A stretch of 64,000 nucleotides of DNA from Minisyncoccota bacterium (GTDB taxonomy: Bacteria > Patescibacteriota > Minisyncoccia > UBA6257 > JAGOQP01), in contig JBAYWE010000002.1 in NCBI GenBank assembly GCA_041674185.1, positions 2,233-66,232 of the forward strand. The letters are read 5' to 3'. Shown piece after piece: positions 22,440 through 41,583 of the stretch. The position numbers were made by a program, and so were the translations under genes. Position 1 is the first letter of the stretch; the number at the start of each line of letters is the position of its first letter. Below the pieces are notes generated by a model. That model had not been told where the DNA came from. It saw nothing but the letters and a program-made list of their open reading frames with translations, and made no database searches.

Positions 22440-22449
22440 TATTTTCTCG

Positions 22450-22935
22450 ATGGTATTAGGGACGCGATATATCGGAGTCGCAATCATGAAAGGATCAGAC
22501 CTACAAGATTGGTTTGTAAAATCCTTAAGTGGAAAATCAGTAAAAGAAAAAATCACATATCTCATAGATATTACAACAGATTATTTACAACGATTCAACA
22601 TTGACGCGTTCGCAATCAAAAAATTACATCCATCACGAAGTTCTCCAACGCTTAATAAACTCAGTGAATCGATAAAGTCAGTTGCCCGAAATGAACATCT
22701 TTCTATCATAGAATATCCGATCTCGACCATAGAACGATCACTCCTTATTGGTAAAACAAATAAAAAATTATTAATCGATGAAGTGCTGAGAATCTATCCA
22801 GTCATCTATCACGATTATGAACGAGAACAGAAAAATAAAAACAGATATCTCACGAGAATGTTTGAAGCAATTGCATTAGGAATCGTATGCAATCAAGCAC
22901 TTGATTCGAATAAAAGAGTCATCACCAATTCTTAA
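22450..22935 (+). CDS. RuvC-like Holliday-junction resolvase paralog (catalytically degenerate?)
   Basis: LGTRYIGVAIM and C-terminal FEAIALGI parallel the downstream RuvC. The first catalytic Asp is absent and a late Asp is replaced by Glu. Confidence 0.5.
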   Translation: MVLGTRYIGVAIMKGSDLQDWFVKSLSGKSVKEKITYLIDITTDYLQRFNIDAFAIKKLHPSRSSPTLNKLSESIKSVARNEHLSIIEYPISTIERSLLIGKTNKKLLIDEVLRIYPVIYHDYEREQKNKNRYLTRMFEAIALGIVCNQALDSNKRVITNS

Positions 22936-22947
22936 AAAATAATTACT

Positions 22948-23451
22948 ATGAAAAAGCAATCATTACAAAAAGTTCTCTCAATTGATCCGGGGACAAAACA
23001 TTTAGGGGTTGCGTTTTTTGAAGGGAAAAATCTTATCTATCATGGAGTAAAAATTATCAAGCATCTCAAATCTCCAGAAGAAACATTACAAGAAGGGAAG
23101 AAGCTTATTCTTCGATTAATTACTGATTATAAACCTGATGTGTTGGTTGTCGAAAAAACATTTTTCTCAAATAACAGAAACTCTGCTCTGCTCAATGTAT
23201 TCGCCGATGAAATACAATCCGTCGGAAAAAGAAAAGGATTGATCGTAAAATCTTTTGCCGCAAATACAGTTCGAAAACAAATTTGTGGAAATGGTTCTGC
23301 AAGTAAAGACGAAGTTGCAAAAGTAGTCGTCTCACTCTATCCCGAACTCAAACCCTATTTAACCTCTGATAGAAAATGGAAGGAAACATTCCATCGAAAT
23401 ATGTTTGATGCAGTCGCTTTAGGATTATTGATTGTAAATCAATCAGCATAA
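22948..23451 (+). CDS. RuvC-family crossover junction endodeoxyribonuclease
   Basis: SIDPGTKHLGVAF, VVEKTFF and DAVALGL match RuvC catalytic motifs. Confidence 0.7.
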   Translation: MKKQSLQKVLSIDPGTKHLGVAFFEGKNLIYHGVKIIKHLKSPEETLQEGKKLILRLITDYKPDVLVVEKTFFSNNRNSALLNVFADEIQSVGKRKGLIVKSFAANTVRKQICGNGSASKDEVAKVVVSLYPELKPYLTSDRKWKETFHRNMFDAVALGLLIVNQSA

Positions 23452-23453
23452 CT

Positions 23454-24248
23454 ATGATCCCCTACTTTGGTGGTAAATCATATTTGGCGGATTGGGTGAT
23501 TTCTCATTTCCCAGAGAACTATAAAAACTTATCCTATTGTGAAGTATTTGGAGGAGGAGGGTGGGTGCTCTATAAAAAAGAACCTAGTCGCATTGAAACA
23601 TATAATGATCTCAATAAAAATATTGTTAATCTGTTTCGAGTCATTCGAGATCGTTTTCCTGAATTTAATCATCGAGCGAATTGGTCGTTACACAGCAGAG
23701 AGTTATTTCAAGAAGCGAAAGCAAAATTACAAGATGATAAAACACTAAGTGATATTGAACGAGCAATTCATTACTCAATTCTACAAACACAATCATTCTC
23801 CGGAGATGGTCATTCATGGACATATCGTGTATCTCCCAGTCATGTGTTTTCTGGAAAATGGTTGCCTCTGTTGAAACGACTTGAGTTAATCAATATTCGA
23901 TTGAAGCGTGTGCAAATCGAATGTCTTGATTTTGAAAAAGTAATTCAAAAATATGATTCCAAAGACACACTCTTTTATCTTGATCCTCCATACTTCGGGA
24001 AAGAAAAATATTATCAGAAAGAAGAGGTCTATTTCGGAAATGAAGATCATATACGATTAGCAACTACGCTCCACAATATCAAAGGAAAATTTCTTCTCAG
24101 TTATTATGATCATCCCAAAATCAAAAAGCTATATCGTGGAAATCGTATTGTGCAAAAATGCATTCCTAAGTATGGATCTAAAAGTAAATTGGTAGAAGCG
24201 ATTGCTACAAAACCACGAGCGAAAGAAATACTTATTATGAATTACTAA
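23454..24248 (+). CDS. DNA adenine methyltransferase (Dam/D12 class, orphan)
   Basis: PYFGGKSYL, EVFGGGGWV and DPPY motifs. Confidence 0.8.
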   Translation: MIPYFGGKSYLADWVISHFPENYKNLSYCEVFGGGGWVLYKKEPSRIETYNDLNKNIVNLFRVIRDRFPEFNHRANWSLHSRELFQEAKAKLQDDKTLSDIERAIHYSILQTQSFSGDGHSWTYRVSPSHVFSGKWLPLLKRLELINIRLKRVQIECLDFEKVIQKYDSKDTLFYLDPPYFGKEKYYQKEEVYFGNEDHIRLATTLHNIKGKFLLSYYDHPKIKKLYRGNRIVQKCIPKYGSKSKLVEAIATKPRAKEILIMNY

Positions 24249-24392
24249 AACATATTCTGAATTGTATTTCGTGCAATGACGCTTTGGATAATTTATTGGT
24301 AAATACATATATTTAAGATATGCATGTATTGTTCTGGTTTTTGTTAGAATCTATTGGCTCTAGTAAGAAAAGAAGAAACTTAACGGGGGCGT

Positions 24393-25163
24393 ATGCGAAT
24401 TAAAATTTATGCCTGGTCTTGTGTAACATTCCTTTTGGTGATGACACCACTGCAATACATTGCACAACAGCATACGCTCGACACACTTCACTATGAACTT
24501 CCCGAAATATACAGTCATGATCAGATTGTAAAACATTTTGCATTCACGTTACGGTATAACGAAGCGCATGAACAATCTGATTGGGTTGCGTATCGATATA
24601 CTAAATCAATGACTAATAAGAAATATCCGCGCACGAATAAATTCCGCATCGACCCAATAGTAAAGACTGGATCAGCCACTCCGTCAGATTATAAAAATAC
24701 TAAGTATGATAAAGGGCATCTAGCACCATGCGATGATATGCGCTGGTCAAAGCAAGCGGAATTAGAATCGTTTCTCATGAGTAATATGAGTCCCCAATCA
24801 CATGCGTTTAATGCGGGTATTTGGAAACGACTCGAAGGAATGATACGGAAATATGCAATCGCATTAGATACCATTTATGTTGCAACGGGTCCCATACTTG
24901 AAAAAGGACTGCCATCAATTGGCAGTAATAAGGTTTCTGTTCCAAAATATTTTTATAAAGTAATACTTGTGTATCGTGAACATAGTAAAGGTGCAATTGG
25001 ATTTATTCTCCCTCATGCACAATCAAAGAAAGATCTATTATCATTTGCTGTCCCGGTTGATTCTGTTGAGAAACGAACGGGAATTAATTTTTTTGCTTCG
25101 TTGCCTGATAGTATTCAAAATAAATTGGAATCAACTTTTCAAAAAGATTTTTGGAGAAATTAA
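24393..25163 (+). CDS. secreted DNA/RNA non-specific endonuclease (Serratia nuclease/EndoG family)
   Basis: Signal peptide; DKGHLAP (the DRGH beta-beta-alpha-Me motif) and SNMSPQ. Confidence 0.8.
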   Translation: MRIKIYAWSCVTFLLVMTPLQYIAQQHTLDTLHYELPEIYSHDQIVKHFAFTLRYNEAHEQSDWVAYRYTKSMTNKKYPRTNKFRIDPIVKTGSATPSDYKNTKYDKGHLAPCDDMRWSKQAELESFLMSNMSPQSHAFNAGIWKRLEGMIRKYAIALDTIYVATGPILEKGLPSIGSNKVSVPKYFYKVILVYREHSKGAIGFILPHAQSKKDLLSFAVPVDSVEKRTGINFFASLPDSIQNKLESTFQKDFWRN

Positions 25164-25205
25164 TATCAGGTTAGGTATATATCATTAACAAATAATGAGG
25201 AAAGC

Positions 25206-25709
25206 ATGGCAGCAAAAGATAGTATTCCGTTTGCTCACTGGTCACATCTCAGTGAGGGCTTACAAGAATCTTCCATGAAGTTTTACCAAGCAACTGAAGA
25301 AGCAATTAAAAAGCGTCAGATACCAGATATCAAACTCTCACGCATTGATTATAGAGAAGGAGGATTATTCTCAGCGAAAAGAGAATATCTCCGAGTAAAA
25401 TGGAAATCATATATCTTTGATATTTGTGCCGCACCATTTGGAACTGGATTTTTTATATCATGGTGGCTAGGACAAAAACCATCCGCACTAATGGCGCTCG
25501 TCTATATGATTCCGTTCATTGGACCTTTAATGGTGCGTTCATTCAAACCGGAAACATATTATCAACTCGATACGACGCAGATGTTTCAAGAATCAATTCA
25601 TCTTGCCGTCTTAGAAGTATTAGATCAAACAACACAAGCAAGCGGACTTCGTTCTCTCTCCGAGATGGAACGAAAACCAATCATGCAAGATGTGTTAAAG
25701 AAATCGTGA
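25206..25709 (+). CDS. hypothetical protein
   Basis: 167-aa ORF with an internal hydrophobic segment. Confidence 0.4.
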   Translation: MAAKDSIPFAHWSHLSEGLQESSMKFYQATEEAIKKRQIPDIKLSRIDYREGGLFSAKREYLRVKWKSYIFDICAAPFGTGFFISWWLGQKPSALMALVYMIPFIGPLMVRSFKPETYYQLDTTQMFQESIHLAVLEVLDQTTQASGLRSLSEMERKPIMQDVLKKS

Positions 25710-25719
25710 GAGTTTCTGA

Positions 25720-28700
25720 ATGCAGTATGAATTGATTGAAGAATTAACAAAGCAATTTTACGAATGGGAACAACGGGGAAGAGGTTGGGATTTATGGAGC
25801 TTTCCCGTTGATCCTGAACCACCGTTTATTCCGTTCTATTATCACAGCGCAGAGAAAGTCGTGCAGATTGATGATGGACGAAAACCAACACTTCTCAGTT
25901 CATTTGCCGATACATTAAAACGTGTATTACTTCCAAGTGAATCTCAAGATGCTCATAAGAATCAAACAATTGAATATCGAAAAGAAATTTTACCACAACC
26001 ATTCACCCGCAGTGATGATATTCAGGAAATAAAAATTGTATTACCGCACGACTATAAGATGGATGCAGAATATCTTGAGCAGTGTATTCTTGGCATTACT
26101 CTTCATACATCTTTGATCAGTTTCGAAATAGTAGGATCGTATGAATCCATAACCATCCAGTTTGCTTGTTGTGCACATGACACAATACATCTTTCTCAAC
26201 AACTCAAAGCATACTTTCCTGAATACACACTCTCAGTATCTGAGAATTCATTTTATGATACATTTTTCCCAGATGAAAATGATGATGTTGCGGTAATCGA
26301 TTATGGATTGTCTGAAGAATTTATGAGACCAATTCGTGTGTATGATTCTTTTGACCCCGATCCTCTCACCGGAATAATTGGAGTATTAGATAATCTACAA
26401 GAAGGAGAAACTGCGCTCTTACAAATACTTTTTACTCCAGTAGAAGCTCCATGGTCTTCAAGTATCATGCGATCAGTTATGACCAGTTCAGGAGATTCTT
26501 TTTTTGCCGATGCCCCGGAAATGGTAAAACTTGCTCATGAAAAATGTAAGTCCCCTCTCTTTGCAGTTAACATGAGAGTATTAGGAAAAGGAATAAATCA
26601 ACATCGTTCATGGGAAATTGTTAAAGCTGTATCAAGTTGTTTGAGTTCATATACACTGCCGCAAAGCAATGAGTTAATTCCTCTCACAAATCAGGATTAT
26701 AATCCTATTGCGCACTATGAAGATGTTATCTTACGGCGAACGAGACGAAGTGGGATGATTCTCAATAGTGAAGAGTTGATATCACTCGCTCATTTTCCAT
26801 CTGCATCTATAGTTTCTAAAAAACTTCGAGGGCAAAATCAAAAAAGTATTCTCGCACCTAATACCTTAGCTGGACATGACTATATACTTGGTGAAAATAT
26901 TCATAGTGGAACGTCACATGAAGTATCACTGAGTCATGAGCAACGATTGCGACACATCCATATTATTGGAGCTACCGGCACCGGAAAATCGACTCTGTTA
27001 CGATCACTCATCACACAAGATATAGAACGTGGACTTGGCATAACGGTATTAGATCCTCATGGAGATTTAATAGAATCGATTCTTGAGCAGATACCAGAAG
27101 AGCGTTTTGAAGATGTGATTGTATTTGATCCTAGTGACGAAATGCATCCGATTGGATTTAACATTCTCGAAGCAAAAACTGAAGTTGAAAAAAATGTATT
27201 ATCATCTGATCTGGTTGAGATATTCAAAAGATTTTCTACCAGTTGGGGTGATCAAATGAGTGTGGTTTTAGGGAATGCTATTTCAGCATTTCTGGAAAAC
27301 TCACGTATTGGTTCATTGATGGATTTACGAAGATTCCTAATCGAGAAAGATTTTCGTGAGGAATTTTTGCGTGATGTTTCGGATGATCATGTCATCTACT
27401 TTTGGGAAAAAGAATATCCCCTCTTACGCGGATCGGCATTAAGCTCAATCCTCACACGACTTGATTTTTTCTTGCGCCCTAAGCTGATAAGAAATATTGT
27501 CTCTCAAACGAAAGGAATTGATCTTAAAGAAATTGTTGATCATAAAAAAATACTTTTAGTAAAACTTGCTCAAGGAATTATTGGTGATGAGAACGCCTAT
27601 CTGTTAGGATCATTGCTCGTATCAAAACTACACCAAGTCGTTATGCAACGGCAATTACAAAATAGCCATGAACGCACACCCTTTTATTTATACATAGATG
27701 AGTTTCAAAACTTTATTACGCCATCCATGAAAGCGATGTTATCCGGTGCAAGAAAATATCATATGGGACTAATCCTTGCGCATCAAGATTTACATCAGTT
27801 ATCGGAAACGGATACCGGGCTTGCTAATTCCATTATATCAAACGCAGGAACGCGCATTTGTTTTCGTGTCGGTGATTTTGATGCGCAGAAATTAGAAAGT
27901 GGATTTGCACATTTTGATTCAAACGATTTACAAAATCTGAGCATTGGTGAGGCAATCGTTCGTGTTGAGCGATCTGATTATGATTTTAATCTAAAAACAT
28001 TTTTACCAAGCTTGAAAAATACCGAAGAAGCGCACAGAACTAAGCAAGCAATCATCGATCTTTCCAGAAAAAAATATGGTGGAGTTCCTGCTGTAATTGA
28101 ACGAACAAAACAGGAACCACAAATATATTCCATACCGCAGACATCGATAAAGAAAGATGTCCCTAAAAAAGAACCTATTGAAATCCCGAAACGGAGTAAT
28201 GATACAATTCGAACTCAGAGCGAAGATCAAAAGAGCATCACCTATCATAGATATTTACAAACATTAATAAAACGATTAGCGGAACAGAGAGGATATAAAG
28301 CTGTTGTTGAAGAACAGACAATTGACAAACTTGGACGTGTTGATGTTGGACTTGAGCGAGATGATGAAAAAATCGCATGTGAAATTTCTGTAACCACAAA
28401 TGATGATCACGAGATAAAAAATATTGAAAAGTGTTTTCAATCAGGGTACCAGAAAGTATTATTCTGCTCACCAGAAAAGAAGCGTCTTGATTCAATAAGG
28501 AAATTGATAGTTGAAAAGTTAGAATCAGTATTATGTGAAAAGGTATTTTTCTTTTTGCCTGATGAATTGGTTTTGTTCTTTGAGAATGAAACTATAGGTA
28601 AGGTCAAACAGCAAAGTGAAAATATCGTGAAAGGATACAGAGTAAAGGTGGAATACAAAACTATTTCCGAAGCTCAAAAAAAAGAGAAACAGGAAGTAGT

Positions 28701-28749
28701 AAGTGGAGTTGTCGTTAATGCGCTGAGAAGATTGAAGGGAGAAAAATAA
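25720..28749 (+). CDS. large P-loop NTPase (DUF87/TraD-VirD4/HerA-like) with unknown N-terminal domain and C-terminal nuclease-like domain
   Basis: Walker A HIIGATGTGKST and a DPHGDL motif, with Walker B at LYIDEFQNF. Paralogous to the ORF at 38893-40227. The C-terminal GRVDVGLERDDEKIACEIS region is PD-(D/E)xK-like (weak). Confidence 0.6.
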   Translation: MQYELIEELTKQFYEWEQRGRGWDLWSFPVDPEPPFIPFYYHSAEKVVQIDDGRKPTLLSSFADTLKRVLLPSESQDAHKNQTIEYRKEILPQPFTRSDDIQEIKIVLPHDYKMDAEYLEQCILGITLHTSLISFEIVGSYESITIQFACCAHDTIHLSQQLKAYFPEYTLSVSENSFYDTFFPDENDDVAVIDYGLSEEFMRPIRVYDSFDPDPLTGIIGVLDNLQEGETALLQILFTPVEAPWSSSIMRSVMTSSGDSFFADAPEMVKLAHEKCKSPLFAVNMRVLGKGINQHRSWEIVKAVSSCLSSYTLPQSNELIPLTNQDYNPIAHYEDVILRRTRRSGMILNSEELISLAHFPSASIVSKKLRGQNQKSILAPNTLAGHDYILGENIHSGTSHEVSLSHEQRLRHIHIIGATGTGKSTLLRSLITQDIERGLGITVLDPHGDLIESILEQIPEERFEDVIVFDPSDEMHPIGFNILEAKTEVEKNVLSSDLVEIFKRFSTSWGDQMSVVLGNAISAFLENSRIGSLMDLRRFLIEKDFREEFLRDVSDDHVIYFWEKEYPLLRGSALSSILTRLDFFLRPKLIRNIVSQTKGIDLKEIVDHKKILLVKLAQGIIGDENAYLLGSLLVSKLHQVVMQRQLQNSHERTPFYLYIDEFQNFITPSMKAMLSGARKYHMGLILAHQDLHQLSETDTGLANSIISNAGTRICFRVGDFDAQKLESGFAHFDSNDLQNLSIGEAIVRVERSDYDFNLKTFLPSLKNTEEAHRTKQAIIDLSRKKYGGVPAVIERTKQEPQIYSIPQTSIKKDVPKKEPIEIPKRSNDTIRTQSEDQKSITYHRYLQTLIKRLAEQRGYKAVVEEQTIDKLGRVDVGLERDDEKIACEISVTTNDDHEIKNIEKCFQSGYQKVLFCSPEKKRLDSIRKLIVEKLESVLCEKVFFFLPDELVLFFENETIGKVKQQSENIVKGYRVKVEYKTISEAQKKEKQEVVSGVVVNALRRLKGEK

Positions 28750-28834
28750 AATATATTATTGTGTGGCTTTGCATCAGTAATTATGTATTTATTATAGACT
28801 AAACAATACAAAGTAATCAGGATTAATATGGTGA

Positions 28835-29407
28835 TTGAAGATGGCAAAAATTAAAAAAATAAAAAGAAATCAAATATTGATTAAGAACTATGGATTATTC
28901 TGGAAAAAAGATGATGTCTTTTGGGGAAAACAAAGAGCTACAGGTAGACTATTAGGAATACTTGCTGGAGCAAAAAGATCTGACACAGTTGATTTCAGAA
29001 ATCAGGTTGGAATTTATGTGCTCTATGCTGATTATAAGATTGTTTATATAGGTCAAGCAGGAAATGGAAATGCAAAACTTTTCGCTCGTTTAAAAAATCA
29101 TTCACGTGATGATCTTGCTGGTAGATGGAATCAATTTTCATGGTTTGGTTTAAACTGGGTTACAAAGCAGCATAAATTATCAAGTGATATAGCTCGTCTT
29201 TTCCCAAAAACGCTCTCCGTGCTCAATCATATAGAAGCAATATTAATTCATGCAAGTGAACCCCCTCTTAATCGGCAAGGGGGAAGATGGGGAAAGGAAG
29301 TTCAGAGATATCTTCAGTATAGAGATGCCGAATTACTTGGAAAATCAGAAACAGAACTGTTAAAAGAAATTCACAAGAAAATAAAAAATATTGGGACAGC
29401 ATCTTGA
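28835..29407 (+). CDS. GIY-YIG nuclease domain protein
   Basis: GIYVLYADYKIVYIGQAGN followed by R...H and N residues, a GIY-x10-YIG pattern. Its stop overlaps the next start (ATGA). Confidence 0.55.
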   Translation: MKMAKIKKIKRNQILIKNYGLFWKKDDVFWGKQRATGRLLGILAGAKRSDTVDFRNQVGIYVLYADYKIVYIGQAGNGNAKLFARLKNHSRDDLAGRWNQFSWFGLNWVTKQHKLSSDIARLFPKTLSVLNHIEAILIHASEPPLNRQGGRWGKEVQRYLQYRDAELLGKSETELLKEIHKKIKNIGTAS

Positions 29408-30330
29408 AAGAAATTATAATCGACATCGGCGACAGCACTAGAAATGAATTGAGATGGTTGGCGTTTTATCGTTCTCTAGAATCCAAATCTATCAAAAAAG
29501 GTAAGCAGGTAATTATTGATTTTGAAAACGTCACGTTTATTATACCTTTCTGTTTGCTTGGTCTGTTAGCATTTATTAAATCTACATTTGAGATCACTCA
29601 AAAAAAAGTTAAGCTAATAAATATTTCTTCAGATAAAACAATATACCAATACATGGAAAGGGTAGATTTTTTTAAGTACACAAAAAAATATTGTACCATT
29701 ATTGGTGATTATACTGATGTAAAATTGTGGGAACGAGATAATGAAGCTAAAAAGGTGCATGGAATTATTGAGGTAGAAAAAGATCCAAATAAGAGTGCTA
29801 AAAAAGTAGCACTAATCATTGATGACCTACAGAACAGATATAAACATATTCTTGATTTCTTTTCTACAAATCATAAAAACGCAAACATCTTCTTTACTAT
29901 ATTATCTGAGATTACTGCCAATATTCCCGATCATAGTAATTCAAATGGATACTTATTGATACAGAGATGGGAGAGTCAAGCTAAAGGAAAAATTTTCACT
30001 AGTCTTTCTATCATTGATACAGGTATTGGAATAAGAAGAAGTCTTCAAAAACAAATAAAGACTCGTAATAGGAAGCTTCCTAAAAATCTTGATGGTGATT
30101 CTGATTTTTTAAGATATGCTTTTAGTGAAGAAGGTACTCGAAGTGGAGCGGGACTACATAGTGTTGTCCGATCTCTTCACGAATGGAACGCAAACGATAC
30201 TGCCTTATTGGTTCTTTCTGGTAGTGGCATTATGTACAAACCCCAAGGATCTTGTGACATAACATTCATCGAAGAAGAACACTACTTTCAGGGTACCCAT
30301 GCAACAATTTGGTTTTATGGAGATATTTAA
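29404..30330 (+). CDS. STAS-like N-terminal domain fused to GHKL (histidine-kinase-like) ATPase
   Basis: N box EITANIPDH, D box IIDTGIGI and G2 box SGAGLH. The N-terminal IIDFENVTFIIPFCLL segment resembles STAS. Confidence 0.6.
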   Translation: MKEIIIDIGDSTRNELRWLAFYRSLESKSIKKGKQVIIDFENVTFIIPFCLLGLLAFIKSTFEITQKKVKLINISSDKTIYQYMERVDFFKYTKKYCTIIGDYTDVKLWERDNEAKKVHGIIEVEKDPNKSAKKVALIIDDLQNRYKHILDFFSTNHKNANIFFTILSEITANIPDHSNSNGYLLIQRWESQAKGKIFTSLSIIDTGIGIRRSLQKQIKTRNRKLPKNLDGDSDFLRYAFSEEGTRSGAGLHSVVRSLHEWNANDTALLVLSGSGIMYKPQGSCDITFIEEEHYFQGTHATIWFYGDI

Positions 30331-30371
30331 ACTTGACAATCATTTCTAGAATACCTACCTTTAAGTAGAAG

Positions 30372-30974
30372 ATGCTTAAGGGTATGTTAAAAAGACAAAA
30401 CAAAATAGAGATTTATCAGGTAGCCCAAAAAGCGGGATGGAAAACTCCAAACACTTTAATTTGGAGAGAGCCCGCACAAAAAATGAGACCTGAATTTGTA
30501 AAGCGATTATATAAAGAAAACGAGACAGTGTGCGAATTAGATTTTTCAGGAATTGAGACGGCAGATGGTTCTTTTATTGATGAGTTTCTTGTGACTGAAT
30601 TAAAAAGCATGGACGCTGGTAAGGTAAGTAAAAAAGCAATTTATCTTTCCAATCTGAATGATGTTGTTTTATACAACGTCGAATTAGTCTTTACAAAAAA
30701 GCGTCCAGCTGGAGAAAAATTTTATATGATGTTTCGTAAAGCAGATGGAACTTGGGAACTGTTTTCAGAAGGAATTGAAGCATCATTAAAAGAAACATTA
30801 GAGTATATAATGATAAAAAAAGAACTAACCTCTAACGATGTTTCTAAGAAATTTAACATCAGTGTTCCGGCTGCTTCGGTAAGATTGAAAAACTTATTTG
30901 ATATGAGAATCGTAGACAGGAAAGACGAAACAACATCGACAGGAAAGGAATTTGTGTATGAATCTCTCTTTTGA
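30372..30974 (+). CDS. STAS-like (DUF4325-type) domain fused to C-terminal winged HTH
   Basis: LDFSGIETADGSFIDEFL resembles the anti-sigma-antagonist STAS core. The C-terminal region is HTH-like. Confidence 0.5.
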   Translation: MLKGMLKRQNKIEIYQVAQKAGWKTPNTLIWREPAQKMRPEFVKRLYKENETVCELDFSGIETADGSFIDEFLVTELKSMDAGKVSKKAIYLSNLNDVVLYNVELVFTKKRPAGEKFYMMFRKADGTWELFSEGIEASLKETLEYIMIKKELTSNDVSKKFNISVPAASVRLKNLFDMRIVDRKDETTSTGKEFVYESLF

Positions 30975-31099
30975 TTTTTTTTGCCCTACTCTTAAGTATA
31001 ATTTGCTTAAGAGGTATTGGAAAATTTTTTACATAGCAGTTAAGCAAAAATAGCTTATAGGTAATTCACTTAATAATCATAAAAGAAAGGAGAAATCCG

Positions 31100-31627
31100 A
31101 TGAACGATTCAAATGAAGTAAACAAAAATCAAAATGAACAGAAAACTCATCCTGATCATTTGAAAAAAGAAATTGATGAGCTTGAACAAAAAGCTGAGAA
31201 GCTCGAAGAGGTAGCAGACCAATTTGAGAATGATGCTGAAAAACTTCATGAAGAAGCACACAAACTTGAAGAGAAGGCAGAGCAGCTTGAGAAAAAAGCA
31301 CATCAACTGGAAAAGGAAGCTGATAAACTTGAAGATAGAGCAGAAGAGCTCGAAGAAAAAGTTGAGCAGCTAGAGCATGAAGAAGAGCATAAGGAATTTA
31401 CTATTTCTGTGAATGGGAGAATGAAAACCGTTCAGGGTAAAACAATTTCGTATGATCAAATTGTTTTTCTTGCCTCTGGAAACCCAAATCCTGATCCAAA
31501 TATTATTTATACCATTAATTACAGTAAGGGTCCCAAACAAAATCCTAAGGGCTCAATGTCACAAGGCGATATTGTTAAACTAAAAGAAGGAATGATATTC
31601 AATGCTACCCCAAGTAATAAGTCTTAG
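31100..31627 (+). CDS. coiled-coil + multiubiquitin (Mub) beta-grasp domain protein
   Basis: N-terminal EKxEELE heptad-rich segment. The C-terminal ~80 aa (FTISVNGRMKTV...IVKLKEGMIFNATP) match the bacterial multiubiquitin domain pattern. Overlaps the downstream E1 gene. Confidence 0.6.
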   Translation: MNDSNEVNKNQNEQKTHPDHLKKEIDELEQKAEKLEEVADQFENDAEKLHEEAHKLEEKAEQLEKKAHQLEKEADKLEDRAEELEEKVEQLEHEEEHKEFTISVNGRMKTVQGKTISYDQIVFLASGNPNPDPNIIYTINYSKGPKQNPKGSMSQGDIVKLKEGMIFNATPSNKS

Positions 31628-32777
31628 TCCCGACCTTAAACAATTGTGGGATGAAGGTTTTGAATTAGAGGTCAAACATGGCTATCTATTAGTGCACAAT
31701 GTCCCCTATGTTACTTCCTCAAAACAAATTAAAAGTGGAACCCTCGTGTCAACACTTGATCTTGCGGGCGAAGTAACCAATAACCCTCAAACACACGTAA
31801 TCTATTTTATTGGAGAATACCCATGTCAAAAGGATGGTTCGCCCATCCTTGCGATTCAGCATCAAAACGGAGATCAGAATCTCGGGAACAAAATTGTCGT
31901 GAATTATTCGTTCTCGAATAAACCGGCGAATGGGTATCCAAACTATTATGAAAAAATAAAACGCTACTTCGAAATTATTTCGAACCACGCAAAATCACTT
32001 AATCCTGATGTTGAAGTAAAAAAATATGAGGTTCATCTTACTGAAGATGAGGAATCTGTATTTCATTACTCAGACACAAATTCGAGTAGAGCAAAGATTA
32101 ATGCGCTACAAGAAAAACTGGAATCACAAAAAATCGTTATTGTCGGTTTAGGAGGAACCGGATCGTATATTTTAGATTTGGTTGCAAAAACTCCTGTTAA
32201 AGAAATACATCTGTTTGACGGTGATGAATTTCTACAACATAATGCATTCCGTTCTCCTGGTGCACCATCACTCGAAAAACTTCGAGAGCGAAAAAAGAAA
32301 GTAGATTATTTTGCTGAGGTATACTCAAGGATGCACAAGGGAATCATTCCCCATGCAGAATTTATCAGCAGTGAAAACATCAATCAATTACTTGACAGTC
32401 ATTTTGTATTTCTTGCAATCGATGGTAGTCAGATAAAAAAGGAATTGATTGAATTTTGCATGAACAACAAAATTCCTTTTGTTGATGTGGGAATGGGTTT
32501 ACAGCTTGCAGATAATGAACTGGTAGGCATTGTGCGAGTCACCACAGGGCTACTCTCTAAAACAGATCATCTTGAAAAAAGAATTTCTTTTTCGGATGAA
32601 TCTGAAAACGCTTATGCAAGCAATATTCAAATAGCGGATTTGAATTCATTAAATGCGGCGTTGGCAGTCATCAAATGGAAAAAGATATTTTCTTACTATC
32701 AAGATTTAGGAAAGGAATGCAATAGTAACTATGCGATAAACACAGGAGAATTATTCAATGAAGACTTTGTCGTATGA
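31602..32777 (+). CDS. E2-like (UBC-fold) domain fused to E1-like ThiF/MoeB adenylyltransferase
   Basis: IVIVGLGGTGSYILD Rossmann motif of ThiF/E1. The N-terminal region has H-x9-C spacing (HVIYFIGEYPC) like UBC catalytic sites. Confidence 0.65.
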   Translation: MLPQVISLSPDLKQLWDEGFELEVKHGYLLVHNVPYVTSSKQIKSGTLVSTLDLAGEVTNNPQTHVIYFIGEYPCQKDGSPILAIQHQNGDQNLGNKIVVNYSFSNKPANGYPNYYEKIKRYFEIISNHAKSLNPDVEVKKYEVHLTEDEESVFHYSDTNSSRAKINALQEKLESQKIVIVGLGGTGSYILDLVAKTPVKEIHLFDGDEFLQHNAFRSPGAPSLEKLRERKKKVDYFAEVYSRMHKGIIPHAEFISSENINQLLDSHFVFLAIDGSQIKKELIEFCMNNKIPFVDVGMGLQLADNELVGIVRVTTGLLSKTDHLEKRISFSDESENAYASNIQIADLNSLNAALAVIKWKKIFSYYQDLGKECNSNYAINTGELFNEDFVV

Positions 32778-33120
32778 GTTTGTGGAATATATTCCAGACC
32801 AAATTGAAGAGGGTAAACTGTATGTTTCAATTCCTAATTGTGTGGCGATTCATAAATGTTGCTGTGGATGCCATACCGAAGTAGTTACTCCTCTATCCCC
32901 TGATGATTGGAGATTAATTTTTGATGGAGAATCTATTTCGTTATATCCCTCAATTGGTAATTGGCAATTTGCCTGTAAGTCCCACTACTGGATTAAGAAT
33001 AATACAGTTGAATGGGCTAAATCATGGGATGATACAATGGCTGAGAAGAATAGTAGTAAAAAATCTAATAAAAAAATGTTCTCGAAATTTTTAAAACATT
33101 TTTCTAAAAGAAAAAAATAA
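32758..33120 (+). CDS. DUF6527-like Cys/His-rich small protein
   Basis: CCCGCH...C...H cluster. This family recurs next to ThiF/multiubiquitin genes. Overlaps the E1 gene's 3' end. Confidence 0.5.
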   Translation: MKTLSYEFVEYIPDQIEEGKLYVSIPNCVAIHKCCCGCHTEVVTPLSPDDWRLIFDGESISLYPSIGNWQFACKSHYWIKNNTVEWAKSWDDTMAEKNSSKKSNKKMFSKFLKHFSKRKK

Positions 33121-33191
33121 AACAAACGTTCTTCACAATTAATTTAATTCATTTTACTAATCGGTTATACCATGATGAACAGTATAACCGA

Positions 33192-35147
33192 TTAAATATC
33201 ATCAGTTTTTGTAGAACTTGATTGTGGCTTGTTAGATAAATCACGTAGAGTCTTTCGCCAGAAAAACACTTGATCCTTCTTAACTCTTAAATACTTCGTA
33301 GAATTCTTTTCTATTCGACCCAAAGTTGATGGATCCACTCCTAATTTCAATGCCATTTCTTTCTGGCTTAAGCCACGAATCTTTCTATAAGAGATCAGTT
33401 TTTCACCCAGTGTCTTATTAGGAAAAACTTCTGGAGTATATCCTAAAAACTCTATGATTTTGGGTATGTACTTAACCGTAGGATTACTCAGATTCTTTTC
33501 CCAGTTATAGATACTGGTTTCTTCGACACCTATAATACAGGCAACATCCTTCTGAAATAGATTTTGCTCTAGTCTCCGTTTTCTTATATGTTCCCCTAAG
33601 GATTGTGGATTTTTAGGAATATTTGATGGTTTTTGAGCTGTTAGTACCAACTTGCAGATTGGCAACGCAGGTATGAAGTTGTGTTGCCTTTCTGTCATCA
33701 ATTTCTCCCCAGCGGAAGCATACTGAAGCTGTATAGAAACCTCATTTTGTCCAATATTGATTCTTTCTGTAATAGTCTCAATAATCTTACGTTTTTCATC
33801 AGAATTAAATGTTTCCCACCGATTATATAGATCCTTCGCTTCGCGAAGTATTTCATCACTAGAAAGAAACTGAATCTTGAGAAAGTCTATTTCAGCTTGT
33901 AACTCCGGAATCTGATTCTCCATTTGAGAGTACTGCTCATCAAGCGGTTTGTAGTAGGTACCAAATCCATCTTTGGGTAACTCCCCTGCCATATGGAGTT
34001 GTACCAATTTGTCCATATCAGATTTTATCTTGGATTGTTTTTTAAGCAGGGTGGAGAGTAGTTCTTCTTTCTCTCTAATAGATTGATCGGCGGTGTTGAG
34101 GTACTGCACCATCTCAGTTGGAGAAAGTAAAAAACTTTTTAGTTGTTCATGGAAAATTGATTCCAGATCAGACGTTCCAATTTTGTTATGACATTTCTGA
34201 CAAGTGTATTTGGGTGAGTTGGATGGAACATACATCTTCGTATCACATTCACAAAATACAAACCCGGTAAATAGATGGACTGCTTTTTTAGCTGGCTTAT
34301 GATTACTTTTTTGTTGCTCATCTAAAATCGCGTTGCATTGATTCCATATATCCTCAGAAACGATTGGTTCTATTTCTATAAATACCCAATCTGAGGGGGG
34401 CTTTAATTCCCATTTTTTATTTTCTCCTAAGCTCTTGGTATAGTTTGCACGCCTTACTCCTTTTGCACTTGGGTCTTGCAGTAAACGAGTTACGGTCGTA
34501 TCACTGAACTTAGAACCATTGCGTGTTCGATACCCTGATTCATTCAGAATACGGGCAACAGTTTTTTTACGTTGATGTTCAATGAATAATTCATAGAGCA
34601 GTTTTCTGATCGGAGCTTCTTTAAGATCGGGAATTAATTTTTTATCAAGCCACTGATATCCAAAGGGTGCTTGGCCTCCTAACGGCTTTCCCATTTTTGC
34701 TCGAACTGGAACTGATGCAGCAACTCGTTCAGCAATTTCTTCCCGTTCCCACTGAGCCATCGCCGCAATCATCGTATAAAATAATCTTCCCGCCGGAGTT
34801 GAGGTATCAATCGATTCTTGTAGAGAAATAAGATCGGCATTGTACTTTCTAAATATCTCTGCAAATTCTAAAAGTTCTTTTGTGTTTCTTGCTAAGCGAG
34901 CAAGTTTAGAAAATATAATTCCTGTAATTTTTCCTGACTTGATATCTGAAAGCATCCGTTGGGTTTCGGGATGTTCCATGACTGACTTACCACTAACGGC
35001 TTCAAGCTTATATACTTCTTTTATATCCCACTCTTTTGATTCTGCATAATAACGAGCGCGTCTCTCATGGTGTTCGGGGCTTTCTCCTTTAACCTGATCT
35101 TCAGTTGAAACACGAATCCAAATACCTATTGATTTATTTTCACCCAT
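33192..35147 (-). CDS. large serine recombinase with C-terminal tandem XRE-type HTH domains
   Basis: N-terminal IGIWIRVSTEDQ resolvase catalytic domain, then recombinase/zinc-ribbon domains. The C-terminal ~130 aa carry two XRE HTHs (LGEHIRKRRLEQNLFQKDVA and LGEKLISYRKIRGLSQKEMA). Confidence 0.85.
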   Translation of the reverse strand: MGENKSIGIWIRVSTEDQVKGESPEHHERRARYYAESKEWDIKEVYKLEAVSGKSVMEHPETQRMLSDIKSGKITGIIFSKLARLARNTKELLEFAEIFRKYNADLISLQESIDTSTPAGRLFYTMIAAMAQWEREEIAERVAASVPVRAKMGKPLGGQAPFGYQWLDKKLIPDLKEAPIRKLLYELFIEHQRKKTVARILNESGYRTRNGSKFSDTTVTRLLQDPSAKGVRRANYTKSLGENKKWELKPPSDWVFIEIEPIVSEDIWNQCNAILDEQQKSNHKPAKKAVHLFTGFVFCECDTKMYVPSNSPKYTCQKCHNKIGTSDLESIFHEQLKSFLLSPTEMVQYLNTADQSIREKEELLSTLLKKQSKIKSDMDKLVQLHMAGELPKDGFGTYYKPLDEQYSQMENQIPELQAEIDFLKIQFLSSDEILREAKDLYNRWETFNSDEKRKIIETITERINIGQNEVSIQLQYASAGEKLMTERQHNFIPALPICKLVLTAQKPSNIPKNPQSLGEHIRKRRLEQNLFQKDVACIIGVEETSIYNWEKNLSNPTVKYIPKIIEFLGYTPEVFPNKTLGEKLISYRKIRGLSQKEMALKLGVDPSTLGRIEKNSTKYLRVKKDQVFFWRKTLRDLSNKPQSSSTKTDDI

Positions 35148-35552: not shown

Positions 35553-36605
35553 TTATTTGTCTAAGTCAGCAAAAACGTGTGAATATTTTTCCCAGATGTT
35601 TCTACTAATATGCCATGCATGTGCATGCTTTGCATATCCATACCATGAAGCACGTGATGTTTGTATTTTCTGAGCAGTAATTTTTTTCTTTAGTAGTTGT
35701 ATTACATATTTCTTAATACGCCGTTTGCATCGTTTGATCGTCGAGGTGCGTAATCGGATATAATGAGGAAAGAGTATATATCCCAAAAAGGGAACACCCG
35801 TCGTGATAGGTGATATAAATACTTTATGGGGATGTATCGTTAAAAGTAAGCGTTCTGTTAAAAATGTCTGCATGGCATCGCGTATATCATGTAATCTTTG
35901 TTTGTCCTCAGAGCAAATTACAATATCATCCATATAGCGGATATAGTACCGACAATACAATCGTTCTTTCGCATAGTGATCAAGTTCATTGAGGTAGATA
36001 TTAGCAAATAATTGACTGGTCAGATTGCCAATAGGTATACCCTTTTTTCTTCCCCCTTTGTTTGAATCATAACTACTATCAATAATGAGTCTCAGAAGAT
36101 TGCGTATATCCACATCATCAATTACGCGAATTAACAGTGCATATAAAATTTCATGATCAATACTTTGAAAATATTTAGAAATATCTAGTTTAAGAAAATA
36201 CGCCCTGCGCGTATATCCATGACTCACCCCATACATAAATTTTTTCAATCGTCGAATAGCACGGTGTGTTCCTTTTTGTTTTCTACACACATACGAATCA
36301 TAAATGAATCGCTTTTCAAAGAGAGGTTCAATATGTGCACACACCACATGATGCACAATACGATCACTAAAGGGAGCGGCACGAATTAATCGTTTCTTAG
36401 AATCACACACGATAAATTCTCGATACGTGCCGTGATAATATGTTTTGGTAGAAAGCGCATGTAATAAGTATCCCAAATTATATTCAAGACATTGTTCAAA
36501 TCTCACTACACAGCGTTTCTGTCGTCGCAATTTTCGCGCACGACAATACGCATAATAGAGTTCAGAAAAGGAACAAAGCGATTGATACATATCATAGATA
36601 TCCAC
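35553..36605 (-). CDS. diversity-generating retroelement reverse transcriptase
   Basis: RT motifs include YMDD (RYMDDIVI). The DGR-specific IGxxxSQ signature (IPIGNLTSQLFANIYL) replaces the group II intron QGxxSP. The 350-aa size is typical of DGR RTs. Confidence 0.9.
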   Translation of the reverse strand: MDIYDMYQSLCSFSELYYAYCRARKLRRQKRCVVRFEQCLEYNLGYLLHALSTKTYYHGTYREFIVCDSKKRLIRAAPFSDRIVHHVVCAHIEPLFEKRFIYDSYVCRKQKGTHRAIRRLKKFMYGVSHGYTRRAYFLKLDISKYFQSIDHEILYALLIRVIDDVDIRNLLRLIIDSSYDSNKGGRKKGIPIGNLTSQLFANIYLNELDHYAKERLYCRYYIRYMDDIVICSEDKQRLHDIRDAMQTFLTERLLLTIHPHKVFISPITTGVPFLGYILFPHYIRLRTSTIKRCKRRIKKYVIQLLKKKITAQKIQTSRASWYGYAKHAHAWHISRNIWEKYSHVFADLDK

Positions 36606-36775
36606 GGGCGCATGGCTTTCCTCGTACAGAGAATTCTATACGAGGAAATCTTATAGCAAACATGTTGCGATAAGTATATGCGCATATATTCCCTTGCGGG
36701 ACAGAACAAAGCCAGTAGTCATCATGACACAGTTGTATATTCCGTAGAATATATATTCGGGCCACTTATAAAAAT

Positions 36776-36900
36776 AATGATGTATACCGAGCGCACCGGA
36801 ATCCAATGTTGTTGTTCGTATTGCCTGGGGTATTGTTCAGATTGAGTGTCTCTACACCAGCGTTCGTGTCATTGTTCCAATTCCCACCACGAAGGAAGCC
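36776..36900 (-). repeat. DGR template repeat (TR)
   Basis: 125-bp near-copy of 37381-37505. About 22 of the mismatches fall where TR has A on the coding (minus) strand, i.e. T on the plus strand. Confidence 0.9.
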
Positions 36901-36973
36901 CGCCTTCATTCCGGTTTTAAATGCGGCATTATCCTGCTTCTGATAATAGATAATTCATACGATCAGAAGCATA

Positions 36974-37309: not shown

Positions 37310-37380
37310 ATGATGATCGTAAAAAATGCGGGGATAGATTTTTAGATAGCTAGATTGCTACGGTTCATTTCGCTATGCGA

Positions 37381-40227: not shown

Positions 40228-40361
40228 CGATCATAGAGAAACAATATCGGTGAGTTAAGCAGTGTAGTTTTGTTTATATCAGCATAGTTTCCCCTCTTAT
40301 GCCGATCTGATTTTTGCATGAAGATGAACATAGCTCATCACAATTAAAAAAGGAGGCATAG

Positions 40362-41511: not shown

Positions 41512-41583
41512 ATAGCTTCACTAAACACATGCCCTGTTTTACACAGGGCATTCATTTAACAAAATTGATAAGGAGAATAAATC

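What the first reader, a model, noticed from the sequence alone, without database searches (positions are those of the whole stretch)
28835..30974. Candidate novel three-gene conflict module: GIY-YIG nuclease + STAS-GHKL ATPase + STAS-wHTH
Three tightly coupled co-oriented ORFs sit in an accessory region. Gene 1 has a GIY-x10-YIG nuclease core. Gene 2 fuses an N-terminal STAS-like segment to a GHKL ATPase with N, D and G2 boxes (EITANIPDH, IIDTGIGI, SGAGLH); this domain class includes the anti-sigma kinases SpoIIAB/RsbW. Gene 3 fuses a second STAS-like domain (LDFSGIETADGSFIDEFL) to a C-terminal winged HTH. A GHKL kinase paired with a STAS antagonist is the logic of Bacillus partner-switching (RsbW/RsbV, SpoIIAB/SpoIIAA). 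Here that logic is wired to a nuclease and a DNA-binding output instead of a sigma factor, and is embedded in a defense/mobile island. I do not recognise this combination as a named antiphage system. It may be a nuclease effector licensed by a phospho-switch.
Basis: partly seen in the sequence, partly recalled or inferred. Interest (0 to 1): 0.85.

Follow-up and report, generated by a model that had tools for sequence, protein, structure and literature searches.

The report
CapK–CapS regulator of a Bub operon
Two of the three genes are a divergent copy of the recently published CapK kinase / CapS repressor pair, which switches on a neighbouring immune operon after DNA damage; the third gene, a small nuclease, is an unrelated insertion, so this is not a new three-gene system.

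Summary

**Genes 2 and 3.** Gene 2 (29404-30330) is a STAS + SpoIIAB-like GHKL kinase. Gene 3 (30372-30974) is a STAS-wHTH protein. Together they match CapK/CapS (Chambers et al., EMBO J 2026). In that system an ssDNA-activated kinase phosphorylates a conserved STAS serine of the repressor and de-represses the adjacent immune operon.
- Gene 3 hits the CapS crystal structures (9Z72, E=1.2e-11) and keeps the phospho-serine as Ser67.
- Gene 2 keeps the N-box Asn and the G1 and G2 boxes. A profile of its superfamily hits E. roggenkampii CapK at 94 bits.
- The palindrome TTAAG-N9-CTTAA occurs exactly twice in 64 kb: at the capK-capS junction and between capS and the next operon. Both sites are conserved in homologous loci.
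- That next operon (31100-33120) is a Type II Bub operon (bubA, bubBD, bubE), the commonest published CapKS partner.

**Gene 1 (GIY-YIG).** It is missing from an 83%-identical locus as a clean ~575-bp indel, and from all other capKS homologues. Its large family sits alone in unrelated contexts.

**Verdict.** A new, divergent, HTH-less Bacteroidota member of a known kind. Interest is low to moderate.

The parts
28835..29407 (+). g1: stand-alone GIY-YIG family nuclease gene. A lineage-specific insertion upstream of capK, not a conserved part of the module. Its stop overlaps the capK TTG start.
   Evidence: - Pfam GIY_YIG_2 scores 22.8 bits.
- GIY/YIG, R85, H89, E134/E142 and N146 are invariant in the family alignment.
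- The family has more than 571 homologues of about 175 aa from diverse phyla. They sit in unrelated contexts: after MutS, beside GmrSD_N twice, and among housekeeping genes.
- It is absent from L001, the 83%-identical relative, as a clean ~575-bp indel, and absent from L005, L007 and L009.
29404..30330 (+). [quoted passage not shown] It lacks the N-terminal HTH of published CapK.
   Evidence: - BLASTP against E. roggenkampii CapK gives 28% identity over 112 aa and aligns N173 with the catalytic N218.
- hhalign gives 89.5% probability.
- An HMM built from 135 superfamily representatives hits CapK residues 130-362 at 93.7 bits.
- Y83, R86, E169, N173, D205, G207, G209, G250 and L251 are invariant with CapK.
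- A capS-like gene always follows it.
30361..30379 (.). Putative CapS operator 1: TTAAGTAGAAGATGCTTAA. This is TTAAG-N9-CTTAA, with TTAA half-sites 11 bp apart. It spans the capS start codon at the capK-capS junction.
   Evidence: - It is one of only two exact matches in the 64-kb window, against 0.22 expected.
- It sits at the same position in L001-L010, including loci only 50-56% identical.
- It corresponds to ChIP peak 1 of the published CapS, which has a TTAA half-site.
- Caveat: the right half-site overlaps capS codons 2-3.
30372..30974 (+). capS-like gene: an N-terminal STAS domain with the predicted phospho-acceptor Ser67, plus a C-terminal wHTH repressor domain.
   Evidence: - phmmer against the PDB puts V. 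cholerae CapS 9Z72/9Z73 (E=1.2e-11) and E. roggenkampii CapS 9Z71 (E=2.7e-4) as the top two hits.
- A clade-only profile gives 7.2e-14 and 7.5e-8.
- Ser67 (DGSF) aligns with S54/S58 (DSSF) and is invariant.
- K173 corresponds to K151. N145 is replaced by A167.
30992..31010 (.). Putative CapS operator 2a: TTAAGTATAATTTGCTTAA, inside the perfect 8-bp inverted repeat CTCTTAAG...CTTAAGAG. It lies in the capS-bubA intergenic region, about 90 bp upstream of bubA.
   Evidence: - It is the second of the two exact matches in the window.
- It is wholly non-coding.
- A positional homologue is present in L001-L004 and L010 (exact), in L009 (exact, with a non-Bub downstream operon), and in L005 and L007 (1 mismatch).
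- It corresponds to the published 'wide palindrome' TTAA-N10-TTAA at promoter 2.
31040..31058 (.). Possible extra operator 2b: TTAAGCAAAAATAGCTTAT, one mismatch from the palindrome.
   Evidence: It was found by fuzzy matching. It closely resembles the L005/L007 downstream site TTAAGCTAATATAGCTTAT and is also present in L001. This is weaker evidence than for sites 1 and 2a.
31100..31627 (+). bubA: a ubiquitin-like protein (coiled-coil N-terminus plus a Multi_ubiq beta-grasp). First gene of the regulated Type II Bub operon.
   Evidence: Pfam Multi_ubiq, 3.7e-16. Synteny is conserved in L001-L007.
31602..32777 (+). bubBD: an E2-E1 fusion (DUF6791 plus a ThiF adenylation domain).
   Evidence: Pfam DUF6791 at 2.6e-58 and ThiF at 1.1e-17. 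NCBIfam PRK06153.1-4 at 2.7e-172. Synteny, definition.
32758..33120 (+). bubE: DUF6527 serine protease, the last gene of the Bub operon.
   Evidence: Pfam DUF6527/BubE at 1.6e-24. Synteny, definition.

Best explanation
Genes 2 and 3 are a CapK-CapS 'controller of adjacent pathway' pair that regulates the downstream Type II Bub operon (bubA, bubBD, bubE; 31100-33120).

**Proposed mechanism.** All steps are inferred from homology to the experimentally studied E. roggenkampii and V. cholerae proteins.
1. At rest, CapS dimers bind the TTAAG-N9-CTTAA palindromes through their wHTH domains. One palindrome spans the capS start (30361-30379). The other lies upstream of bubA (30992-31010, with perhaps a third site at 31040-31058). 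Binding represses capS itself and the Bub operon.
2. DNA damage or phage infection produces single-stranded DNA. This binds CapK between its STAS and GHKL domains and activates the kinase.
3. CapK phosphorylates CapS on Ser67, at the start of STAS helix alpha-2.
4. Phosphorylation breaks the CapS dimer and releases the DNA, so capS and the Bub ubiquitin-like conjugation genes are expressed.

**Shown here:** the domain folds, homology to CapS and CapK, conservation of Ser67 and the kinase boxes, the conserved operators, and the conserved capK-capS-(immune operon) synteny.

**Not shown here:** kinase activity, ssDNA sensing and repression.

**Gene 1** is a separate, widely distributed stand-alone GIY-YIG nuclease gene. 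It was inserted just upstream of capK in this lineage. It is probably co-transcribed with capK but is not a component of the switch.
For: **CapS (gene 3).**
- The two best PDB hits are the CapS crystal structures 9Z72/73 (E=1.2e-11) and 9Z71 (E=2.7e-4). Their identity as CapS is confirmed.
- A clade-only profile gives 7.2e-14 and 7.5e-8, and the next hit is a generic wHTH at 4.9e-4.
- Ser67 aligns with the phosphorylated S54/S58 and is invariant.

**CapK (gene 2).**
- N173 aligns with the catalytic N218.
- A superfamily HMM hits E. roggenkampii CapK at 93.7 bits over residues 130-362.

**Operators.**
- TTAAG-N9-CTTAA occurs exactly twice in 64 kb against 0.22 expected. The two sites fall at the positions of the published ChIP peaks and use the same TTAA half-site.
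- Both sites are conserved in loci only 50-56% identical, including one with a different downstream operon.

**Context.**
- Type II Bub follows the pair here and in L001-L007.
- HsdRMS lies directly upstream in L005 and L007.
- A DUF6602 gene plus a DncV-like NTase operon lies downstream in L009.
- This matches the published statistics for 443 capKS pairs: 231 are followed by Bub, 75 by CBASS, and 88 are preceded by an R-M system.

**g1 as a passenger:**
Against: - g2 is only distantly related to the experimentally studied CapK: 28% identity over the GHKL core, with hhalign covering only 56 columns.
- g2 lacks the N-terminal HTH that is part of the published CapK architecture.
- The published ssDNA-contacting W68 has no securely aligned counterpart. 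W18 is invariant in this clade but lies 6 positions away in the MAFFT alignment.
- CapS N145, called 'absolutely conserved' in the paper, is Ala167 here, and the GG wing motif is G-K.
- The half-site spacing is 11 bp, against 10 bp and 1 bp in E. roggenkampii.
- The right half of operator 1 lies inside capS codons 2-3, so part of its conservation may reflect coding constraint.
- The AlphaFold model of g3 was too poor to use (pLDDT 50.7). The g2 model is only moderate (pLDDT 72.8).
- No promoter could be assigned.
- Bub operons themselves have no demonstrated anti-phage phenotype.
Confidence: 0.85

Rival explanations
1. The trio is a real three-gene toxin-type system, as the reader proposed and by analogy with the published VapKSC. 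The GIY-YIG nuclease would be the effector, held inactive by the STAS protein g3 and released when the kinase g2 phosphorylates g3.
For: - g1 and g2 overlap by 4 nt and are co-oriented, so they are probably co-transcribed.
- A precedent exists: CapK-like and CapS-like proteins control a VapC nuclease in vapKSC.
- g1 has an intact GIY-YIG catalytic core.
Against: - g1 is absent from all other g2-g3 loci, including an 83%-identical one where the difference is a clean indel.
- None of four diverse g1 homologues examined lies next to a kinase or STAS gene.
- g3 has the full CapS wHTH and conserved operators, not VapS's short inhibitory C-terminal helix.
- The gene order differs from K-S-C.
Confidence: 0.04
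2. g2-g3 act as a self-contained two-gene defence or toxin-antitoxin-like unit. Their target would be something other than the adjacent operon, for example global transcription. On this view the adjacency to Bub is only defence-island clustering.
For: - In L009 the pair occurs without Bub.
- g2 matches a phage protein family of unknown function, phrog_3364, at 2.3e-19.
- No experiment here links the pair to Bub.
Against: - In L009 the pair is still followed by the same palindrome and then by another immune-type operon (DUF6602, a DncV-like NTase). That is the modular behaviour published for CapKS.
- The operator always lies between capS and the next co-oriented operon.
- Neither protein has a toxin-like domain.
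Confidence: 0.07
3. A conventional housekeeping partner-switching module of the RsbW/RsbV or SpoIIAB/SpoIIAA type, controlling an alternative sigma factor.
For: The best structural matches of the g2 model are SpoIIAB and RsbW, together with anti-sigma antagonist STAS proteins.
Against: - No sigma-factor or PP2C phosphatase domain was found in the neighbouring ORFs scanned.
- The kinase carries its own STAS domain and the substrate carries a wHTH.
- The genes sit in a mobile island with a serine recombinase and a replication initiator.
- The family is extremely rare: 9 close homologues in 5.8 billion proteins, and one species among 185,579 genomes. It is not housekeeping.
Confidence: 0.02

Closest known systems
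CapK + CapS (Chambers, Rani, Min, Villa & Corbett, EMBO J 2026; PMC13373217; CapS structures PDB 9Z71, 9Z72 and 9Z73)
   Same: - The kinase has a STAS domain and a SpoIIAB-like GHKL domain, with the N-box Asn conserved.
- It is immediately followed by a STAS-wHTH protein that carries the conserved phospho-acceptor Ser and shows direct sequence homology to the solved CapS structures.
- TTAA-based palindromes lie at the capK-capS junction and between capS and the downstream operon.
- The downstream operon is a Bub operon, and homologous loci have an R-M system upstream.
   Different: - The kinase lacks the N-terminal HTH. The paper found that domain dispensable.
- Identity to the studied CapK is only about 28%, in the GHKL core.
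- CapS N145 is replaced by Ala, and the GG wing motif is changed.
- Both operators use one spacing (TTAA-N11-TTAA) rather than a narrow (N1) plus a wide (N10) site, and operator 1 overlaps the capS start codon.
- The host is a Bacteroidota-like MAG. No name beginning Bacteroid-, Flavobacter-, Chitinophag-, Sphingobacter- or Cytophag- appears in the published list of 443 capKS loci, and the quarter of that list read is mostly Proteobacteria.
- An extra GIY-YIG gene is inserted upstream.
VapKSC (same paper): VapK kinase, VapS STAS antitoxin, VapC PIN nuclease
   Same: - The kinase is STAS-GHKL without an HTH, like g2.
- A nuclease gene sits in the same gene cluster.
- A conserved Ser/Thr on the STAS partner is the switch.
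   Different: - The nuclease here is GIY-YIG rather than PIN. It lies upstream rather than downstream and is not conserved with the pair.
- g3 has a full wHTH DNA-binding domain and operators, in place of VapS's short C-terminal inhibitory helix.
Bacillus partner-switching pairs SpoIIAB/SpoIIAA and RsbW/RsbV
   Same: The kinase fold, the STAS substrate fold, and the position of the phosphorylated serine at the start of STAS helix alpha-2.
   Different: - There is no sigma factor and no PP2C phosphatase.
- The kinase has its own STAS domain.
- The output is a wHTH repressor fused to the substrate.
- The setting is a mobile immune island.
Type II Bub (6E.2 / DUF6527) operon (Ye, Gong, Chambers & Corbett; bioRxiv 10.1101/2024.11.21.623953)
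   Same: The downstream genes 31100-33120 have the defining set: BubA Ubl, BubBD E2-E1 fusion and BubE DUF6527.
   Different: BubA has a long coiled-coil N-terminal region here. No functional test was made.

Membership tests
CapK | STAS domain followed by a SpoIIAB/RsbW-like GHKL kinase domain | tested here: met
   [not shown]
CapK | Sequence homology to the experimentally characterised CapK (E. roggenkampii) | tested here: met
   BLASTP gives 28% identity over 112 aa, E=2e-6. hhalign gives 89.5% probability. An HMM of 135 representatives of the g2 superfamily hits CapK residues 130-362 at 93.7 bits. The relationship is distant, at superfamily level.
CapK | Conserved catalytic N-box Asn (N218), plus the G1 and G2 boxes | tested here: met
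   N173 aligns with N218. E169, D205, G207, G209, G250 and L251 are invariant across g2 relatives and CapK.
CapK | N-terminal HTH domain (published architecture HTH-STAS-GHKL) | tested here: not met
   g2 and all its close homologues start at the STAS domain. CapK residues 1-55 have no counterpart. Only 80 bp or less of upstream space exists in homologous loci. The paper reports that deleting the HTH has no phenotype.
CapK | Aromatic ssDNA-stacking residue (CapK W68, VapK F54) | tested here: inconclusive
   W18 is invariant in the clade and is Phe in the nearest outgroups. In the MAFFT alignment it is 6 positions away from W68. No complex model could be made.
CapK | Kinase activated by single-stranded DNA | not testable with these tools
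   This needs biochemistry, or an AlphaFold 3 protein-ssDNA model.
CapK/CapS pair | capK immediately followed by capS | tested here: met
   True in the window, in L001-L009 and for the outgroup P0131.
CapS | STAS-wHTH protein homologous to the solved CapS structures | tested here: met
   With g3 alone, 9Z72 gives E=1.2e-11 and 9Z71 gives E=2.7e-4. With a clade-only profile the values are 7.2e-14 and 7.5e-8. The PDB identities are confirmed.
CapS | Absolutely conserved phospho-acceptor Ser on STAS helix alpha-2 (S54 or S58) | tested here: met
   Ser67 in DGSF aligns with DSSF (E. roggenkampii) and D-A-[S58A]-F (V. cholerae). It is invariant in all 10 clade members.
CapS | Conserved DNA-contact residues N145, K151 and G169-G170 | tested here: not met
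   K151 corresponds to K173 and is conserved. N145 corresponds to A167, which is nearly invariant (at least 90% Ala) among close homologues, with Asn retained in P0287. GG corresponds to G191-K192. The set is only partly retained, which suggests an altered DNA-reading surface.
CapS | Palindromic TTAA-half-site operators at the capK-capS junction and between capS and the downstream operon | tested here: met
   TTAAG-N9-CTTAA occurs exactly twice in 64 kb (0.22 expected), at those two positions. It is conserved in homologous loci. The spacing differs from the published sites. Binding itself was not tested.
CapK/CapS pair | Located directly upstream of an immune-type operon (Bub, CBASS and others), often downstream of an R-M system | tested here: met
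   Type II Bub lies downstream here and in L001-L007. HsdRMS lies upstream in L005 and L007. A DUF6602 gene plus a DncV-like NTase operon lies downstream in L009.
VapKSC | PIN-domain VapC toxin in a conserved K-S-C operon, with VapS being a STAS domain plus a short C-terminal helix | tested here: not met
   There is no PIN domain. g1 is GIY-YIG, lies upstream and is not syntenic. g3 carries a wHTH.
Sigma-factor partner switching (SpoIIAB/AA, RsbW/V) | Cognate sigma factor and PP2C phosphatase in the module | tested here: not met
   No sigma-factor or PP2C domains were found among the flanking ORFs scanned.
Type II Bub operon | BubA Ubl, BubBD E2-E1 fusion and BubE DUF6527 | tested here: met
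   Multi_ubiq at 3.7e-16; DUF6791 at 2.6e-58 with ThiF at 1.1e-17; DUF6527 at 1.6e-24. Catalytic Ser/Tyr residues were not checked.

The most novel reading that the evidence does not exclude
The GIY-YIG gene inserted with its stop overlapping the capK start may be functionally coupled to the switch rather than being a passenger. One possibility is that the nuclease attacks invading DNA, and the resulting ssDNA or repair intermediates activate CapK. This would parallel the published but untested idea that upstream R-M systems feed CapKS. It would give a nuclease -> ssDNA -> kinase -> repressor -> Bub relay, assembled by a single gene insertion. A lesser novelty is that this clade is an HTH-less CapK paired with a CapS that has a changed DNA-reading surface (N145 to Ala) and a single-spacing operator.
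Probability: 0.08. Interest if true: 0.5.

Novelty: new member of a known kind. Interest (0 to 1): 0.25.

Why it matters
**Scope of the finding.**
- It extends the newly described CapK/CapS DNA-damage switch to a Bacteroidota-like lineage.
- It extends it to a minimal, HTH-less kinase, with operators of a different geometry.
- It adds an independent, sequence-only confirmation that CapKS travels with Bub operons and R-M systems.

**Use for annotation.** STAS-GHKL plus STAS-wHTH pairs that Pfam and PADLOC miss can be recognised by three features:
- the DGSF/DSSF serine;
- the YxxR...N-box signature;
- flanking TTAA palindromes.

**Limit.** It does not reveal a new kind of defence system.

Tried and rejected
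- **PADLOC.** There was no hit for g2 or g3, and only weak PDC-S14 and UzuA hits for g1. This is uninformative because the 2023 library predates CapKS.
- **NCBIfam.** Nothing relevant for g1-g3.
- **PDB sequence search with g2.** Neither g2 alone nor its profile gave a meaningful hit. No CapK structure has been deposited.
- **AlphaFold2 model of g3.** With a 10-sequence alignment it gave pLDDT 50.7, with the STAS half below 50. I ran no fold search on it and used sequence matches to 9Z71 and 9Z72 instead.
- **PDB search with profile A3.** The score of this search is inflated because A3 contains the E. roggenkampii CapS sequence itself. I replaced it with the clade-only profile A6.
- **Promoter and terminator scan.** The sigma-70 and terminator scan of 28600-33300 gave no more hits than in shuffled sequence, so no promoter is claimed. 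A Bacteroidota-type TAnnTTTG element is not cleanly present in the operator spacers.
- **Rfam.** Nothing found across 28-38 kb.
- **Genome-collection scan with the g2 profile.** Only one species matched, a Bacteroidetes MAG with the same island as L002. Wider sampling had to come from metagenome contigs.
- **VapKSC-like nuclease control and sigma-factor partner switching.** Both were considered and rejected. See the rival explanations.
Full report
**1. The observation**

The three co-oriented ORFs are at exactly the stated coordinates:
- g1, 28835-29407, 190 aa
- g2, 29404-30330, 308 aa
- g3, 30372-30974, 200 aa

g1 and g2 overlap by 4 nt, and g2 and g3 are 41 nt apart.

The quoted motifs are present:
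- g2 has EITANIPDH with N173, IIDTGIGI and SGAGLH.
- g3 has LDFSGIETADGSFIDEFL with Ser67.
- g1 has GIY-x9-YIG, not x10.

Pfam supports each domain call only marginally. GIY_YIG_2 scores 22.8 bits, just above threshold. HATPase_c (18.4), DUF4325 (16.7 and 17.2) and HTH_5 (20) are all below threshold. PADLOC and NCBIfam give nothing useful for g2 or g3.

**2. What is conserved**

g2 is very rare. There are 9 close homologues among 5.8 billion proteins, and one species among 185,579 genomes, a Bacteroidetes MAG.

Their contigs show the following:
- g2 is always immediately followed by a g3 homologue.
- g1 is never present.
- In L001-L004 (83% identity) the same island has only 80 bp between the upstream 1008-aa ATPase gene and g2.
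- A DNA alignment shows a clean ~575-bp indel. Its right edge lies 18 nt before the g2 start.
- In L005 and L007 (50-56% identity) the pair follows a type I R-M system (HsdR, HsdM, HsdS).
- In L009 the pair follows a DEAD helicase.
- In the window and in L001-L007, the pair is followed by Multi_ubiq + DUF6791-ThiF + DUF6527.
- In L009 it is followed instead by a DUF6602 gene and a DncV-like nucleotidyltransferase operon.

**3. Gene 1**

g1 belongs to a large, strongly conserved family. It has more than 571 hits of about 175 aa, from Planctomycetota, Gammaproteobacteria and other phyla. The GIY-YIG core is intact.

I examined four diverse members. Each is a solitary gene: one after mutS, two beside GmrSD_N genes, and one among housekeeping genes. 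None lies next to a kinase or STAS gene.

The family's C-terminus normally ends about 6-10 codons earlier. In the window the frame runs on into sequence that L001 also has upstream of g2. This is consistent with an insertion.

So g1 is an inserted passenger. It is probably co-transcribed with g2, but it is not a conserved partner.

**4. Identification of g2-g3**

A literature search on the Bub/DUF6527 operon led to Chambers et al., EMBO J 2026. The paper describes two proteins:
- CapK has an HTH-STAS-GHKL architecture. Single-stranded DNA activates the kinase.
- CapS is a STAS-wHTH repressor. CapK phosphorylates it on a conserved serine, which dissociates the repressor dimer and de-represses capS and the downstream immune operon.

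Of the 443 capKS pairs in that paper, 231 precede Bub operons, 75 precede CBASS, and 88 follow an R-M system.

I tested membership directly.

*CapS.*
- g3's two best PDB hits are the CapS crystal structures: 9Z72/73 at E=1.2e-11 and 9Z71 at E=2.7e-4. Their identity as CapS is confirmed.
- A profile made only from this clade gives 7.2e-14 and 7.5e-8.
- Ser67 aligns with the phospho-acceptor S54/S58 and is invariant.

*CapK.*
- I took the CapK sequence from the paper's source data.
- BLASTP aligns the GHKL core at 28% identity, with N173 matching the catalytic N218.
- hhalign gives 89.5% probability.
- An exhaustive profile search found 451 cluster representatives of STAS-GHKL proteins.
- An HMM of 135 of them hits CapK residues 130-362 at 93.7 bits.

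**5. Operators**

Published CapS binds TTAA-half-site palindromes in two places: between capK and capS, and between capS and the downstream operon.

In the window, TTAAG-N9-CTTAA occurs exactly twice in 64 kb, against 0.22 expected:
- 30361-30379, spanning the capS start codon.
- 30992-31010, inside a perfect CTCTTAAG/CTTAAGAG inverted repeat about 90 bp upstream of bubA.

The same two positions carry the motif in the homologous loci, including L009 where the downstream operon differs. L005 and L007 have one mismatch at the second site. In the roughly 180 kb of loci fetched by that point, the exact motif matched only at the capK-capS junction and just downstream of capS. A third, one-mismatch site lies at 31040-31058.

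One caveat applies. The right half of site 1 is also capS codons 2-3.

**6. The downstream operon**

Genes 31100-33120 form a Type II Bub operon: BubA Ubl, BubBD E2-E1 fusion and BubE DUF6527 serine protease. This operon conjugates its Ubl through oxyester intermediates. No anti-phage phenotype has yet been shown for it.

**7. Differences from published CapKS**

- g2 lacks the N-terminal HTH. The paper found that domain dispensable. VapK, the CapK-like kinase of the vapKSC toxin system, also lacks it.
- The nearest outgroup, P0131, is likewise an HTH-less kinase followed by a CapS-like protein.
- CapS N145 is Ala167 here, and the wing GG motif is G-K.
- Operator spacing is 11 bp at both sites.
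- The ssDNA-stacking W68 has no secure counterpart. W18 is the candidate.
- No Bacteroidota-type genus name tested appears in the published capKS list, and the part of it read is mostly Proteobacteria.

**8. Mechanism and verdict**

The most likely mechanism (confidence about 0.85) is the published CapKS logic applied to this locus:
1. CapS dimers sit on the two operators and repress capS and bubA-bubBD-bubE.
2. ssDNA from damage or infection activates CapK.
3. CapK phosphorylates Ser67.
4. CapS leaves the DNA and Bub is expressed.

The folds, the homology, the key residues, the operators and the synteny are shown here. The biochemistry is inferred.

The claims of novelty, the three-gene unit and the nuclease output are not supported.

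Overall this is a new, divergent member of a known kind.

**9. Context**

The pair lies in an integrative element. Its genes are:
- a replication-initiator-like gene;
- RuvC-like genes;
- a D12 methyltransferase;
- an Endonuclease_NS gene;
- a 1009-aa TrwB/HerA-like ATPase (phrog_5156);
- a large serine recombinase.

A diversity-generating retroelement lies next to it.

Noticed in passing
window 35553-38804, minus strand: A complete diversity-generating retroelement. It has a reverse transcriptase (35553-36605), a template repeat (36776-36900), a bAvd accessory gene (36974-37309), and a target gene (37389-38804). The target has a pilin-like N_methyl N-terminus and an FGE-sulfatase/C-type-lectin C-terminus that carries the variable repeat (37381-37505). 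Of 23 TR-to-VR differences, 22 are at template adenines.
   Followed up: partly
window 21825-35147: The capKS-Bub genes sit in an integrative-element-like island. It carries a replication-initiator/DnaD-like gene (21825-22439), two RuvC-like genes, a D12 adenine methyltransferase (23454-24248), an Endonuclease_NS gene (24393-25163) and a 1009-aa TrwB/HerA-like ATPase (25720-28749). The ATPase hits PADLOC mad8 at 4.8e-21 and phrog_5156 at 5e-63. A large serine recombinase with C-terminal HTH_3 domains (33192-35147, minus strand) closes the island. The relative L001 has the recombinase at the other end, plus an extra type II R-M system and a DDE transposase.
   Followed up: partly
window 28835-29407; loci L013 and L016: The g1 GIY-YIG family (~175 aa, with an invariant GLFW...W N-terminal motif) is widespread across phyla and has no assigned function. 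In two of four contexts examined it sits directly beside a GmrSD_N (DUF262, type IV restriction-like) gene. This hints at a defence-related role or at mobile behaviour of its own.
   Followed up: partly
window 11766-13495: A second serine recombinase gene (11807-13495, minus strand) overlaps the 3' end of a tRNA-Gln gene (11766-11839). It is followed by a low-GC block (~12-20 kb, GC 0.31-0.34) that contains a fused D12/N6_N4 methyltransferase (17105-18958). This is probably another integrated element.
   Followed up: no
window 38893-42540: A second, shorter TrwB/HerA-like ATPase (38893-40227, minus strand) lies here, followed by a PD-(D/E)XK nuclease (40672-41511) and a DUF932 gene (41584-42540). 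These are further mobile-element or defence-type genes to the right of the DGR.
   Followed up: no
window 29404-30330: g2 matches a phage protein family of unknown function, phrog_3364, at 2.3e-19 over nearly its full length. CapK-like STAS-GHKL kinases therefore also occur in phage or prophage genomes.
   Followed up: no
window 28835-29407: NCBI names the identical g1 protein as coming from a 'Candidatus Paceibacterota bacterium' MAG. Other evidence points to Bacteroidota instead: the window encodes a T9SS Por_Secre_tail protein (19272-20519), and the closest genome hit is a Bacteroidetes MAG. The MAG may be mis-binned or mis-classified.
   Followed up: no
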